A DNA stretch of 64,000 nucleotides, taken from contig NC_052146.1 in assembly GCF_902713615.1 (NCBI RefSeq), forward strand, positions 23,550,234 to 23,614,233, read 5' to 3'. Shown here piece after piece: positions 54,501 through 60,500 of the stretch. The stretch comes from Scyliorhinus canicula. Lineage: Eukaryota. Position 1 is the stretch's first letter; each line of letters starts with the position of its first letter. Made by a program: the position numbers.

Positions 54501-57500
54501 CTATGCCCTTTAGTTTTAGACTCCCTTCCTTTGGGAAAAGATGTTGACCTTATCTATGTCCCTTATTATTTTATAGACCTCTATCAGATCACCCCTAAGC
54601 CTCCTACGCTCCAGGGAAAAAAGTCTCAGTCTCTCCAGCCTCTCCTTATGACTCAAACCATTAAGACCCGGTAGCATCCGAATAAATCTTTAGTGCACTC
54701 TTTCTAGTTTAATAATATCCTTTCTATAATAGGGTGACTAGAACTGTACACAGTATTCCAAGTGCAGCCTTGCTAATGTCTAGTACAACTTCAGCAAGAC
54801 GTTCCAACTCCTGTATTCAATGTTCTGACGAATGAAACCAAGCATGCTGAATGCCTTCTTCACCACCCTGTCCACTTGTGACTCCACTTTCAAGGACCTA
54901 TGAACCTGTACTCCTAGATCTCTTTGTTCTATAACTCTCCCCAACATCCTACCATTAACTGAGTAGATCCTGCCCCGATTCAATCTACCAAAATGCATCA
55001 CCTCACATTTATGTAGCTTAAACTCCATCTGCCCACTGGCCCAATTGATCACAATCCGAGGTAACAGCCTTCACTGTCCACTATGCCGCCAATCATGGTG
55101 TCATCTGCAAACTTACGAACCATGCCTCCTAAATTCTCATTCAAATCGTTAATATGAAAAACAAACAACAGTGGACCCAGCACTAATCCCTGAGGCACAC
55201 TGCTGGTCACAGGCCTCAAGTTTGAGAAACAACCCTCTACAACCACCCTTTGTCTTCTGTCGTCAAGCCAATTTTGTATCCAATTGGCTACCTCACCCTG
55301 GATCCCATCTGCTGGCTTCTTTTGTCTGTCCTTTGTCCTGCTGCAAAGTTGATCATCTGTGTCTGGAAATTCGTTACGTATTCATAGCATGGTCTTGTTC
55401 TTTTGTGCAAATGTGAGTGGGTAAATCACAAAGTCCATATAGCGATAACAAGTTTGTATTGACTTGCATGCTCTTGTAGATGACCAGTATCGATTCCAGC
55501 CAGGGCCTCATGTAGAAGTTTATGTTCCTAGCCTATGTGTATCTTCTCCACCTGTCTTAGGCCCAACCATCTTCAGCTGCTTCATCAATTACCTTTTTGT
55601 CATCATAAAATCAGAAGTGGGGAGGTTTGAACCATTCACTACTCCTCGAACACTGAAGCAGTCTATGTCTAAATGTAGCAAGACCTGGACAATACCTCGA
55701 CTTGAACTGAGAAGTGGCAAGTAACTTTCACGCTAGGTGACAGGCAATGACCATCATCTTACAAGAGAGCATTTAACCATCGCCCCTTGACACTCCTTGG
55801 CAATGCCATCGCTGAATCCCCCACGATCAACATCCTGGGGGTTACCATTGACCAGAAACTGAACTGGACTAGCCATATTGGCTATAAAAGCAGTTCGGAG
55901 GCCAGGAATCCTATGACGAGTAACTGACCTCCCTACTCCCCGAAGCTTATGCACCATCTACAAGGCACAAGTCCAGGGTTTGATGGAATACTCTGCACTT
56001 GCCTGGATGAGTGAAGCTCCAACAACACTCCAGAAGCTCAACATCATCCAGGACAAAGCAGCCTGTTTGCTTCGTACCCAGAAACATTCAATCCCTCCAC
56101 CACCATTGAACAGTGGCAGCAGTATTATAATAATAATCGCTTATTGTCACAAGTAGGCTTCAATGAAGTTACTGTGCAAAGCCCCTAGTCGCCACATTCC
56201 GGTGCCTGTTCGGGGAATGTACCATCTACAAGGTGAACCACAAGAACTCAACAAGGCTCCTTAGGCAACACCTTCCAAACCTATGACCACTACCATCTAG
56301 AAGGGCAAAGGCAGCAGATACCTGGGAATATAATCACCTGGAGGTTCCCCTCCAAGACACTAACCAACCCGACTTGGAAATACATCGCCGTTCTTTCACT
56401 GTCGCTGGGTCAGAATCCTGGAATTCTTTCCCTAACAGCATTGTACATGTACCTATACCTTAAGAGGTCGGCTGCACACTATCACACCAGCTTCTGGAGG
56501 ACAACTAGGGGTGAGCAATAAATGCTGACAGAACCAGCGACATCCACATCCTGTAACCTTTTTTTAAATGGCAGGCATTTACTGTTCTCAAGTATATAAC
56601 CTTTTCTCAGTAATCTGGATTCAGCTTATCGATTTTCGATGGAATTCTTCTCTGCTCTTCCAACTTTATTGCTTTGTCAGTGATTTGGATCCTGGGAAGG
56701 ACTGATCTGATGGAGGGGGGGTGTTCAAGGTGTAATCTACCAGCAACGCTGTGCCTGATCAGCAGTGCGCCACTGCGCAATGTGGCTGGTAAATGCCGGG
56801 AGACCTCGAGCCCACGATCTACCCAGCTCGTCACGAATCACGAGATCTAATGCTATGTCACTAGACGTCACAATGTGAAGCCCGCCCATTGTGGGCAGGG
56901 TCACATTTTAGCAAATCTGCATATTAGAACGGGCTAGCTAGTCTCACTCTAATATGCATTCCCGAGATCTAGCCAAGGCATGGGATCTATCCCCTTCGCC
57001 TCAGAGACCTCGTGTGAGCGCCGTTCGGTATTGGTCTCCCCAAACTGGGACCAGATGGATCGGCACTCGTGGGGTCTTCCATTGGATCAGAGGCCCCCAG
57101 GATGCCAGCCTGGCACTGCCAATGTGCCCAGGTGACACTGCCAGGGTGCTGGGCATGCACTGCCATGGTGCCAAGCTGGCATTGTTTGCTCGGTGAGTTG
57201 TTGTGTTTTGGTTCTTGTAGATTGGTATATAAGCAGAAAGAGGCTGTAAAGAGTTTGGGAATAGGCGCCGAAGCCAGGTCCGCTGGCACAACGTTCATGG
57301 TGCATAACCAGGGAGCAGACAGATAGTTCACACAGAACATTCTGGAAACGGACAAGACTATGAAAGAGAAAAGGCTGATTCATCTTTCGAGCAGGGTGTA
57401 TGGTGACTCTTGAGTCTGTGTATTTGGATTAATCAGCAATTGTGCCAATCTGCGAAGACACTAATGGCTGCAAAAAGTATTATTCAGTCCAAGCAGGCTG

Positions 57501-60500
57501 CAGAAGCTTTTGATGGAACCCTGACTGAGGTTGTGTGCACAGTGTTCAATGATTACATCTTTGTGGTGGTCACACAGTATGGCAAAATGGGAACATTGAT
57601 CTCTGCAACACCCTACAGTGTGGGAAATGATATCAGCAAACCCACATTTAGCACAAAGAGTCTAATGGAAAAGGATGAGCCTCTCATCCATGTCTATGCA
57701 AAGCACCTTGTGACTTTTGTTTCTGAGGAATCTGGGAACAAATTGGTGCTACTGGCATTGGCCTTGAAAGACGCAAATGTGGACAGTATTAAATCTATCA
57801 AACAGCTGATTCAAAGCTGCCGACTCTGGTGAGATTCATTGACCAGCTGAGTCTAGTGAATAATGTATAAAAGAGTAACATGACTTCTCTTCGTTCCACA
57901 AGGGCAAAAATATCACAATGAAAATCAAACTTCTTAACTCTGGCATGAATGTTGCTGAATGGAAATCGAGGAGCAACTTTACTTTGTCTTTTTGATGCAG
58001 GGGTCATTGAACTGGAAAGCTAGTGTTTGTACTCAGTTGAGAAACATAATTGCAGCATATTTTAGACTATGCATACTCCCAAGGCAATCGGCACCCTTGA
58101 TGTTAATTAAGGCTGAAGTTTGATTTTTAAGGTAAAGATGGAACATTAGTGAAGGGAACACTAACTAGATTTTACATTCCATTCTTGAGTGTTCAGGCTG
58201 AAGCGAGGCAAGTAGTTAATGCAAAGATAGTGATTGGAGAAATGTAAATTGTGAGAAATGCATTGCAATAAAGTATATGAAAATTTTTAAAAATGTAAAA
58301 AACTATGAACACAAAGCTTAAGTAAGACTGAAACTAGTAAGCACTCTCCAGAAACCATTAAAACTAGATGGAAATCGATGGTGGTACTGAACAATTCACT
58401 ATTACGATGTGAATTTGACCTAAAACGAAAGCCAACCTCATTAGTCTGTCTGCTTTTCAAAAACTGCACGTGTAGCAGAAATGCGCTGATCAGCCAAGGG
58501 TGCTGGTGTACTTCAGAACAAGAACAATGGAGACCTTCGGTGTATGCAAACCTGTGCTCTCCATAGCAGACATGAGGCACTATTTCATATTGTAGACATG
58601 GACCTTGACTCCATCCTTGGAGCAGATTCATGTTAGCTCCTGAATTTAATCGAACAATTATGTGTCCCAGAAGATGGCTGCCCAGCTGAATACTTCACAT
58701 CCCTACAGGATATTAGAGTGTGCACGATTTATGATGATTCAGAAGAAATCCAGGTGGAGGACGACAAATCAGACAGAGACAGAAGAGCCAGCGAGCATTC
58801 TGCAATTCTGGTTAACAATCTTCAAGAATGTACATGTGCTCAGTGGCGTGATACAGAGGCATGACGAGCCCATTTAAAGCATCTGCAAGGTGTGAATGTT
58901 AAATGGACAGAGCATGAGAAGCCGTGGAGCTTCACTCTGGAGTTTAAGTTCGAGCCAAATGAGTATTTCACAAATGAGGTAATAGCGAAAGTATATCAGA
59001 TAGATTTGTAGCCTCTTGAATCTTTCTGTGGTGAAACAGAAATCCTGGAATGCACAGTCTGTAAGATCGACTGGAGGGAGGGCAAAAAATGTAATGGCGA
59101 AAACGATTCAAACAAAACCGAAGCACAAAGGTCGAAGCACTCGCAGAACAGTTACAAAAGCAAGAAACTACGGCATCGCCTTCACAAAATAAAGAGAGGA
59201 AAGAAGAAAAGACTTGGAGAGCTAGCTCATCCCACTAACAAAACCAGAATTGGGAACAACGGGAAGCAGCAAACAGCGTCAAGCCAGGAAGTGCAAAAGA
59301 AAGAGTCTAGTGACACGAGCATAGCAATCAGAGACACAAGCCTTCCAAAGGCACAGAGCAAAGTGGAAAATAAACAAGAGGTCGGCACATAAACCAGTCT
59401 TCGAAGAAGCTGGCAGCAGCTCGAATGATCACAGAGGTGATCCTGTGAGGGAGGCACAATGATTTATGCAAAACAGACGGACACTGGCCAGGCATTACAT
59501 GTTTATGGACACCCTAGTAAAGCTCATTCAGTTAAAAGATCAATGTTGGCTGTAACAAATCTTAATGTTTTCTGAGGAAGGGGGATGTGGTGATATGCCT
59601 GTAAGAACTGTATAGGTGGATGGTGTGCGACCTCCAACCAGTAGGTGATGGTGCAGACACACCATGGAGTCTCAAGACTGTGGTCATGTGACCAAAAACT
59701 CCACTAGAAGTAGGGATACATTGGCCATCAGCTGATAGTTGTAGGAGATGGCAGTAAGACATACAAGTGAACCGTCGTGCTAGGTGTAGTTCCAGAGAAG
59801 TACAAAGAAACTCCATGATAACTTGCTCAGTAACAGATCGCTATGTTACCATGTGTGATTCAGTAAAGATCTTGGTTTGGACAATTCCAGGTTTTTGGTG
59901 AATTCCTTTGCAAGACATCAAAAACCAAGCTGTGCAGTAATTGCAGAGCGTGTGCCAAGGTTTGTGATCCACTGTATCCTTGCCATCAGCTTCACACAGC
60001 ATTGGGGCAGGAGTCTGAGGGACTCCTTTTCTGCTCATACTGTCCATGAAGCATTTATCTGAGAGCAGTATCAACAGCCACAACCCAATTCTCCATTCAC
60101 CACACCTTACCTCACCTCTGTCGTTGACCAGTAAGATTCTGTGATGGTCACAATACAAAAATAAAAGCAATCACAAAATAAGCCAGCGTGGCATCATGGG
60201 ACCTTCACTTTTTTTTTGTCCATACTTACAAATATGGCAGGAAAAGCAAGCTGTGCAGCTGGTGGGCTGCACTCCACTTCTCCCACATGTGTTCACACTT
60301 GAAAAAAAGATGAGAAAATTCTGCTCCGTGTATTTGTGTTTCCAAAGGTGAAGATGCCACATGAAATGAAATTAAATGCAAACTGCTTATTGTCACAAGT
60401 AGGCTTCAAATGAAGTTACTGCGAAAAGCCCCTAGTCACCACATTCCGGCGCCTGTTCGGGGAGGCTGGTACGGAAATTGAACCTGAATTGAATGCTGCT

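What the first reader, a model, noticed from the sequence alone, without database searches (positions are those of the whole stretch)
57357..58309. Intact intronless PSMG3 copy nested in sense orientation in ALDH2 intron 4
Seen: a full 122-codon ORF, a 3' UTR, AATAAA with an A-rich remnant, and a possible TSD ACTATGAA (57357-57364 and 58302-58309). From memory, tetrapod PSMG3 has a coding intron near DE|PLIH and is not linked to ALDH2. Residues I recall as conserved are altered (GxPT to GTLT, VLLG to SLME, KNL to KHL), suggesting relaxed selection, yet no stop or frameshift has occurred while all neighbouring sequence is decayed. It is either a young processed pseudogene or a retrogene encoding a variant 20S-proteasome assembly chaperone.
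Basis: partly seen in the sequence, partly recalled or inferred. Interest (0 to 1): 0.68.

Follow-up and report, generated by a model that had tools for sequence, protein, structure and literature searches.

The report
Catshark PSMG3 processed retrocopy, probably dead
This is an intron-less, reverse-transcribed copy of the proteasome-assembly chaperone gene PSMG3 inside an intron of a catshark aldehyde dehydrogenase gene; its reading frame is still open but it looks like an ordinary young processed pseudogene.

Summary
The described features are all present. A 122-codon ORF (57464-57832, + strand) carries a complete PAC3 domain. It has a 5'UTR-like leader, a 3'UTR-like tail with one AATAAA, an A-rich remnant and an exact 8-bp flanking repeat.

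The window is catshark, not human. Its ALDH2-like exons are 100% identical to the Scyliorhinus canicula model. The copy lies in sense in the intron 30321-62136, canonical intron 4. The S. canicula PSMG3 protein sits on a different contig and differs at 9 of 122 residues.

Eight changes map to the copy and one to the parent.

An open frame is expected in roughly 12-39% of neutral copies of this age. The decayed neighbour is a separate NAP1L1-like pseudogene.

Verdict: processed retrocopy, most likely a young pseudogene. A working retrogene is not excluded, because dN/dS, expression and orthologous sites could not be checked.

The parts
57357..57364 (.). 5' copy of the 8-bp direct repeat ACTATGAA (candidate target-site duplication)
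   Evidence: Read. It is the only shared 8-mer of the two junction zones, but by itself it is within chance (27%, 6.6%, and 55 of 205 decoys).
57365..57463 (+). 5'UTR-derived leader of the retrocopy (99 nt)
   Evidence: The in-frame translation of 57422-57463 is IWINQQLCQSAKTL. It matches 11 of 14 residues of the N-terminal extension of the S. canicula PSMG3 model P0122. The 5' limit at 57365 rests only on the candidate TSD.
57464..57832 (+). Open 122-codon PSMG3/PAC3 reading frame plus stop, with no intron
   Evidence: It is 93% identical to the PSMG3 of S. canicula and S. torazame. PDB 2z5e_A matches at E 2.7e-39. The AlphaFold model (pLDDT 76.3) matches 2z5e_A with TM 0.84.
57833..58279 (+). 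3'UTR-like segment
   Evidence: It runs from the stop to the A-rich stretch and has no other copy in the window. Its origin from the parental 3'UTR is inferred and was not tested, because no parental nucleotide sequence was available.
58267..58272 (+). AATAAA polyadenylation signal
   Evidence: It is the only AATAAA in 57365-58420.
58280..58301 (+). A-rich remnant (short or decayed poly(A) tail)
   Evidence: 22 nt, 64% A.
58302..58309 (.). 3' copy of the 8-bp direct repeat ACTATGAA
30241..30320 (+). Host ALDH2-like exon upstream of the intron (canonical exon 4)
   Evidence: tblastn: 100% identical to S. canicula P0125 residues 77-104 and 92.9% to S. torazame. AG acceptor and GT donor were read.
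30321..62136 (+). Host intron (31,816 nt) that contains the retrocopy
   Evidence: Bounded by the splice sites read. The numbering as 'intron 4' follows the recalled 13-exon ALDH2 plan and the alignment to the 521-residue Stegostoma protein.
62137..62248 (+). Host ALDH2-like exon downstream of the intron (canonical exon 5)
   Evidence: Pfam Aldedh E 3.4e-09, profile positions 97-135. 100% identical to S. canicula P0125 residues 103-140. Splice sites were read.

Best explanation
A mature PSMG3 mRNA of the catshark lineage was reverse-transcribed, presumably by a LINE enzyme. The cDNA was inserted into intron 4 of an ALDH2-like gene, in the same orientation as that gene. The insert carries part of the 5'UTR, the whole coding sequence without its intron, a 3'UTR with its AATAAA and a short A tail, but no promoter of its own. 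Since then it has drifted with little or no protein-level constraint, so it is a young processed pseudogene. Its frame is still open only because few mutations have accumulated.

Shown: the PAC3 identity, the lack of an intron, the host gene and strand, the unlinked annotated parent, and the excess of unusual substitutions on the copy.

Inferred: LINE involvement, the exact insertion borders (TSD), the lack of expression and the lack of function.
For: Identity: complete PAC3 domain. The best hits are Scyliorhinus PSMG3 proteins at 93%.

Lineage: T19, shared only with the two Scyliorhinus proteins among the nine shown, places the source in that lineage.

Retrocopy marks:
- The coding sequence runs straight through DE|PL, where tuatara and swift isoforms reveal a splice junction.
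- The leader translates to 11 of 14 residues of the upstream extension of the S. canicula PSMG3 model.
- There is a single AATAAA followed by an A-rich run and a flanking 8-bp repeat.

Separate parent: the window's three ALDH2-like exons are 98-100% identical to the S. canicula model and 85-97% to S. torazame. That species' PSMG3 lies on a contig of a different length and differs at 9 of 122 residues. The copy's exact protein is absent from the 15-billion-protein collection, which does hold both S. canicula models.

Relaxed constraint:
- 8 changes fall on the copy and 1 on the parent, with S. torazame as outgroup (exact p 0.039).
- 6 of the 9 differences are residues seen in none of 111 vertebrate PSMG3 proteins. 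This is the highest count among the 51 sequences with 5-14 differences from their nearest neighbour. Second is the Echinops 'PSMG3-like' model with 5, and ordinary orthologues have at most 3.
- G69E lies in a column with 110 of 110 G, and I66S in a column with 110 of 110 V or I.
- V16F, V48A and I66S sit in predicted beta strands.

Open frame not surprising: given at least 9 nonsynonymous hits, P(no stop) is 0.62-0.65 and P(no frameshifting indel) is 0.22-0.69. The indel-to-substitution ratios of 0.035-0.14 are recalled values.

LINE reverse transcriptases are present in the same intron.
Against: - The frame is intact, with start and stop in place.
- None of the seven human PAC3 positions that PMC6539346 (passages) names as alpha5/alpha6 contacts (55, 61, 72, 77, 80, 81, 85) differs between copy and parent.
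- The rate excess is only marginal and depends on the outgroup: 6:1 with Mustelus (p 0.125), 7:1 with Carcharodon/Cetorhinus and with Heterodontus (p 0.07), 4:2 with Stegostoma (p 0.69).
- dN/dS could not be computed, because no parental nucleotide sequence was reachable.
- Sense orientation in a transcribed host gene means the sequence is at least present in pre-mRNA.
- The TSD is not significant alone.
- The parental intron in sharks is inferred from tetrapod isoforms, not seen.
Confidence: 0.78

Rival explanations
1. Working retrogene. The copy is transcribed, either from a nearby acquired promoter or by riding on the host gene. It would encode a variant PAC3 that still pairs with PAC4 and binds alpha subunits, perhaps in one tissue.
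For: - Open 122-codon frame with start, stop and AATAAA.
- All named alpha5/alpha6 contact positions are unchanged relative to the parent.
- The model still folds as PAC3 (TM 0.84 to 2z5e_A).
- Shark retrogenes with expression have been reported for other genes (Greenland shark preprint, passages).
- A Carcharodon 'PSMG3-like' protein model exists.
Against: - Substitutions hit otherwise invariant or class-invariant columns: G69E, I66S, V16F, V48A.
- Six private residues is the highest count among the 51 sequences compared.
- No protein with this exact sequence is in the collection that holds the S. canicula gene models.
- No promoter is carried along.
- The open frame is expected by chance in roughly 12-39% of cases. 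This range is my product of the figures and about 0.9 for the start codon.
Confidence: 0.12
2. Chimeric retro-insertion. The PSMG3 and the adjoining NAP1L1-like sequence entered together by template switching of the reverse transcriptase. They would then be of equal age, and the intact PSMG3 frame would imply selection.
For: - Both lie on the + strand and are adjacent.
- By linear extrapolation from residue 157 at about 58767, the NAP1L1-like reading would start near 58300, next to the PSMG3 3' junction (extrapolation is inference).
Against: - PSMG3 has its own AATAAA, A-rich end and a repeat that brackets it alone.
- The NAP1L1-like part is far more decayed. Its recognisable pieces lie in two reading frames with a stop between two same-frame pieces, and are 20 of 36 and 25 of 43 identical to human NAP1L1 (my count from the alignments).
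- No NAP1L1 similarity was found between 58309 and 58766.
Confidence: 0.05
3. Native PSMG3 gene or DNA-level duplicate. On this reading the ORF is the species' own PSMG3, or a segmental copy of it.
For: The ORF is complete and 93% identical to Scyliorhinus PSMG3.
Against: - The S. canicula PSMG3 model is a different sequence (9 of 122 residues differ) on a contig of a different length from the ALDH2-like gene.
- The copy lacks the splice junction that isoforms show at DE|PL.
- It ends in AATAAA plus an A-rich run.
- It lies inside an intron of an unrelated gene.
Confidence: 0.02

Closest known systems
Vertebrate PSMG3 / PAC3 (Pfam PF10178; human PAC3 structures 2Z5E, 6JPT, and in 20S assembly intermediates 8QYJ, 8TM3)
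   Same: Same length (122 residues), a full PAC3 domain and the same predicted fold. 93% identical to catshark PSMG3.
   Different: It has no coding intron and no linkage to the annotated gene. It carries six residues never seen in 111 orthologues, including G69E.
LINE-mediated processed pseudogenes / retrocopies of housekeeping genes, as reviewed in PMC5470649 (seen in the search listing only)
   Same: Intron-less cDNA-like copy with UTRs, AATAAA, an A-rich end and a short flanking repeat, at an unlinked intronic site.
   Different: The reading frame is still open. The tail is short or decayed and the TSD is statistically weak. The LINE family responsible is unknown.
Retrogenes reported in the Greenland shark (RAD51, OPTN, PLEKHA1, LRAT, WAPAL; bioRxiv 10.1101/2024.09.09.611499, passages read)
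   Same: Single-exon copies of multi-exon genes in a shark genome, with LINE or LTR elements nearby.
   Different: Those are presented as expressed duplicates of DNA-repair-related genes. Here no expression data exist and the substitution pattern points to decay.
'PSMG3-like' gene models of Carcharodon carcharias (P0008, 191 aa) and Echinops telfairi (P0114, 161 aa)
   Same: Diverged PSMG3 paralogues with many private residues: 12 for P0008 in the 19-sequence set and 5 for P0114 in the 112-sequence set.
   Different: They share none of the window copy's six private residues. P0008 carries lamniform states (A54), so these are independent events. Unlike the window's ORF, they are annotated as proteins.

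Membership tests
PAC3 / PSMG3 protein family (PF10178) | Sequence match to the PAC3 profile above the curated cut-off, over its full length | tested here: met
   90.5 bits against a cut-off of 21.2, profile positions 1-87 of 87. PDB PAC3 matches at E 2.7e-39.
PAC3 / PSMG3 protein family (PF10178) | PAC3 fold | tested here: met
   AlphaFold2 model with pLDDT 76.3 and pTM 0.71. Foldseek gives TM 0.84-0.85 to 2z5e_A, 8qyj_L, 6jpt and 8tm3_i.
PAC3 / PSMG3 protein family (PF10178) | Conservation of family-invariant residues | tested here: not met
   Of 15 columns that are at least 99% identical in 111 orthologues, the copy departs in 1 (G69E). 103 of the 111 orthologues depart in none.
Processed retrocopy | Lacks the introns of the parental gene | tested here: inconclusive
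   The copy is continuous across DE|PL, where tuatara and swift isoforms mark a splice junction. The shark parental gene structure itself could not be seen.
Processed retrocopy | Carries parental UTR sequence | tested here: inconclusive
   For the 5' side, 11 of 14 upstream triplets match the N-terminal extension of the S. canicula model. The 3'UTR is untested.
Processed retrocopy | Poly(A) signal followed by an A tail at the 3' end | tested here: met
   AATAAA at 58267-58272 and a 22-nt stretch with 64% A. The tail is short or decayed.
Processed retrocopy | Target-site duplication | tested here: inconclusive
   An exact 8-mer lies at both junctions, but a match of this kind arises by chance in 6.6-27% of shuffles and in 55 of 205 decoy windows.
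Processed retrocopy | Located away from the parental gene | tested here: met
   PSMG3 lies on a 147,036,345-nt contig and the ALDH2-like gene on a 313,568,160-nt contig.
Functional retrogene | Intact reading frame | tested here: met
   122 codons with no stop or frameshift relative to the parent.
Functional retrogene | Purifying selection on the copy's branch (dN/dS below 1) | not testable with these tools
   No shark nucleotide collection was available. The protein-level proxies point the other way.
Functional retrogene | Transcription and translation of the copy | not testable with these tools
   No expression data were available. The exact protein is absent from the protein collection.
Functional retrogene | Conserved intact orthologue at the same site in related species | not testable with these tools
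   No shark genomes were searchable. No second S. torazame PSMG3-type protein is among the 120 listed hits.

The most novel reading that the evidence does not exclude
The copy is an expressed retrogene whose product is a PAC3 variant. It would keep every named alpha-subunit contact position unchanged relative to its parent but have a remodelled beta-sheet core and turn (V16F, V48A, I66S, G69E). Such a protein might act as a tissue-specific or competing partner of PAC4 in 20S proteasome assembly in catsharks.
Probability: 0.08. Interest if true: 0.45.

Novelty: new member of a known kind. Interest (0 to 1): 0.12.

Why it matters
As read here it matters little. It is one more processed pseudogene in a repeat-rich shark intron. 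It is useful mainly as an annotation note, so that the ORF is not called as a second PSMG3 gene, and as a possible presence/absence marker for dating within catsharks.

It does show that mRNA retroposition with poly(A)-type hallmarks has operated in the Scyliorhinus lineage, and that PSMG3 has been copied independently in several vertebrates.

Only if the copy proved to be expressed and constrained would it bear on proteasome-assembly biology.

Tried and rejected
- dN/dS between copy and parent was not possible.
- Looking for an empty or filled orthologous site in other sharks was not possible for the same reason.
- A self-BLAST of the flanks and the insert against the window, meant to find an uninterrupted copy of the flanking sequence, found nothing spanning the junction.
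- A search for shark NAP1L1 with the 48-residue fragment found no candidates. The neighbour was therefore mapped only against human NAP1L1 chains in the PDB.
- Three further stretches between 58309 and 58861 gave no NAP1L1 match.
- A match of 58309-58563 to Rab11 (E 0.53) is at chance level and was not accepted.
- Rfam found nothing in the window.
- Literature: 0 papers hold both 'PSMG3' and 'retrocopy'. In the wider search (634 papers with at least 2 of 5 terms), none of the 12 listed contains PSMG3.
- The native-gene and DNA-duplicate readings were considered and rejected (see rivals).
- A rough 5'UTR yardstick leaves 11 of 14 triplets unchanged. This fits a pairwise divergence of about 0.07 and is unlikely at 0.32 (p 0.009), but it cannot exclude intermediate values.
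Full report
**What is in the sequence**

The + strand carries an ATG at 57464 followed by 122 codons and a stop at 57830-57832. The protein has a complete PAC3 domain: PF10178, E 8.2e-26, profile positions 1-87 of 87. It matches human PAC3 chains in the PDB at E 2.7e-39. An AlphaFold2 model built on a 19-sequence alignment has pLDDT 76.3 and pTM 0.71. That model superposes on 2z5e_A with TM 0.84.

Downstream, the only AATAAA between 57365 and 58420 lies at 58267-58272. 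It is followed by a 22-nt stretch that is 64% A. ACTATGAA occurs at 57357-57364 and again at 58302-58309, directly after the A-rich stretch.

That repeat is the only shared 8-mer of the two junction zones, but it is not significant alone. A match of this kind arises in 27% of 5000 mononucleotide shuffles with a 68-nt zone, in 6.6% with a 26-nt zone, and in 55 of 205 decoy windows.

**Whose genome, and which host gene**

I do not take this window for human. One exon-like stretch (62126-62260) matches Pfam Aldedh. Used alone as a query, it found 'aldehyde dehydrogenase, mitochondrial-like [Scyliorhinus canicula]' (P0125) at 100% identity, against 97% for S. torazame. This search gave 4328 hits with E <= 0.001 among 4445 candidates, of which 120 were listed.

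tblastn of four named shark proteins against the window gave separate matches:
- 26979-27125: 98% to P0125.
- 30241-30324: 100% to P0125.
- 62135-62248: 100% to P0125.
- 15273-15380: the model's own first exon.

S. torazame scores 85-97% on the three shared exons.

Splice sites read give exons 26985-27125, 30241-30320 and 62137-62248. The intron that holds the finding is therefore 30321-62136. Against the 521-residue Stegostoma protein these exons cover residues 77-124, 125-152 and 151-188. That fits exons 3, 4 and 5 of the 13-exon ALDH2 plan, which I recall and did not test.

The host model was examined exon by exon. The N run at 20975-21474 was left as it is. The roughly 35 residues that Stegostoma and Heptranchias have before the exon at 26985 were not found in the window. 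Whether they lie in the N run or elsewhere stayed unchecked.

**The parent**

The best protein hits to the ORF are PSMG3 of S. torazame (93%), S. canicula (93%), Carcharodon/Cetorhinus (92%) and Mustelus (90%). The search gave 153 hits with E <= 0.001 among 167 candidates.

- The S. canicula protein is recorded on one contig of 147,036,345 nt. The ALDH2-like protein is on one of 313,568,160 nt, so the two genes are unlinked.
- The window's exact protein is not in the 15-billion-sequence collection, although both S. canicula models are.
- T19 is shared only with the two Scyliorhinus proteins among the nine compared. The copy keeps G54 where S. canicula has E, and D103 where S. torazame has E. 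The source was therefore a Scyliorhinus-lineage mRNA. The insertion cannot be ordered relative to the split of the two species.

**Retrocopy marks**

- A tuatara isoform has a 17-residue insertion exactly between KDE and PLVH. A swift isoform has a deletion ending exactly before PLVH.
- The 42 nt before the ATG translate to IWINQQLCQSAKTL. The N-terminal extension of the S. canicula model reads MWSNQQLCQSARTL, so 11 of 14 residues agree. Parental leader sequence is therefore present.
- The shark parental gene structure and the 3'UTR could not be checked.

**Is it constrained?**

The copy differs from the S. canicula protein at 9 of 122 residues, which needs at least 10 nucleotide changes.

Rate on the two branches (copy: parent):

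| Outgroup | Changes | Exact p |
|---|---|---|
| S. torazame | 8 : 1 | 0.039 |
| Mustelus | 6 : 1 | 0.125 |
| Carcharodon/Cetorhinus | 7 : 1 | 0.07 |
| Heterodontus | 7 : 1 | 0.07 |
| Stegostoma | 4 : 2 | 0.69 |

Kind of change, judged against 111 named vertebrate PSMG3 proteins (12 unnamed hits left out):
- Six of the copy's residues are never seen: 16F, 48A, 51Y, 66S, 69E, 94L.
- Column 69 is G in 110 of 110 and column 66 is V or I in 110 of 110.
- Column 16 is V, I or L in 111 of 111, and column 48 is V, L, M or I in 111 of 111.
- Among 51 sequences with 5-14 differences from their nearest neighbour, the copy has the most private residues (6). Next is the Echinops 'PSMG3-like' model with 5, and ordinary orthologues have at most 3.
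- V16F, V48A, H51Y and I66S fall in predicted strands. G69E lies just after strand 61-68, and P94L at the start of strand 94-100.

Against decay, none of the seven positions that PMC6539346 names as alpha5/alpha6 contacts of human PAC3 (passages read) differs between copy and parent.

**Why the open frame is not evidence of selection**

For this coding sequence, 3.0-3.9% of random substitutions give a stop and 68-74% are nonsynonymous. Given 9 nonsynonymous hits, P(no stop) is 0.62-0.65. With recalled indel-to-substitution ratios of 0.035-0.14, P(no frameshifting indel) is 0.22-0.69. Together with about 0.9 for keeping the start codon (my estimate), this gives roughly 0.12-0.39.

GTLT and KHL are the normal state in cartilaginous fishes. 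L20 occurs in 19 of 111 proteins and H81 in 33 of 111. Only SLME (I66S, G69E) is a true change.

**The neighbours**

Just downstream, on the same strand, lies a decayed NAP1L1-like processed pseudogene.
- Pfam NAP matches 2 of 8 stretches.
- PDB NAP1L1 residues 157-192, 193-235, 248-270 (weak, E 0.29) and 264-292 map to consecutive pieces. These lie in two reading frames, with a stop between the two pieces that share a frame.

This neighbour is a different and much more eroded insertion, so its decay says nothing about selection on PSMG3.

A chimeric co-insertion is unlikely. PSMG3 has its own AATAAA, A-rich end and bracketing repeat, but only an orthologous site in another species would settle it.

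The intron also holds LINE reverse-transcriptase remnants.

The window's virus-like stretch is a Ty3/gypsy-type LTR-retrotransposon-like element on the minus strand. Its pol spans 9727-13315, with protease, RT, RNase H and integrase domains, between 151-nt direct repeats that are 97% alike. Its pol is split into two open stretches in different frames, so it has at least one frameshift. I only described it.

**Literature**

- 0 papers hold both 'PSMG3' and 'retrocopy'.
- None of the 12 listed papers of a wider search holds PSMG3.
- Shark retrogenes of other genes are reported in the Greenland shark preprint (passages). Its supplements, which may list more, are closed and unseen.

**What stayed unchecked**

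The parental locus, dN/dS, orthologous introns in other sharks, and expression.

**Verdict**

This is a processed PSMG3 retrocopy in intron 4 of the catshark ALDH2-like gene. It is most probably a young pseudogene with a frame that is still open (confidence 0.78). A functional variant chaperone is not excluded (about 0.1). The finding is ordinary and of low interest.

Noticed in passing
window 58767-59165 (+), possibly from about 58640: A decayed NAP1L1-like processed pseudogene lies directly downstream of the PSMG3 copy. Its pieces map to human NAP1L1 residues 157-292 in two reading frames, with a stop between two pieces that share a frame.
   Followed up: partly
window 58309-58563 (+): Weak, chance-level similarity to Rab11 (E 0.53), and no Pfam match. 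It could be a third, very old retro-fragment or nothing at all.
   Followed up: partly
window 9073-13594 (-): The virus-like stretch is a Ty3/gypsy-type LTR-retrotransposon-like element. Its pol (9727-13315) has protease, RT, RNase H and integrase domains, and lies between 151-nt direct repeats that are 97% alike. pol is split into two open stretches in different frames, so it has at least one frameshift. Described only.
   Followed up: partly
window 41468-44038 (+); 37667-38212 (-); 2824-3939 (-): LINE remnants. The first has endonuclease and reverse-transcriptase domains, and its best solved-structure match is human LINE-1 ORF2p (E 1.3e-24). The second has an RT fragment and the third a weak endonuclease match.
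   Followed up: partly
window 15273-15359 (+) and N run 20975-21474: The S. canicula ALDH2-like model (P0125) starts in a non-canonical first exon here. It lacks the mitochondrial-type N-terminus and about 35 residues that Stegostoma and Heptranchias have before the exon at 26985. A 500-N run lies between the two exons and was left unfilled.
   Followed up: no
proteins P0008 (Carcharodon) and P0114 (Echinops): Both are annotated 'PSMG3-like' models with many private residues and extended N-termini. They share none of the window copy's private residues, so they look like independent PSMG3 retrocopies called as genes.
   Followed up: partly
window 57365-58301: CpG observed/expected is 0.23 in the insert (0.12 in the ORF), against 0.47 for the whole intron. 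This remains unexplained and could simply reflect the parental mRNA's composition.
   Followed up: no
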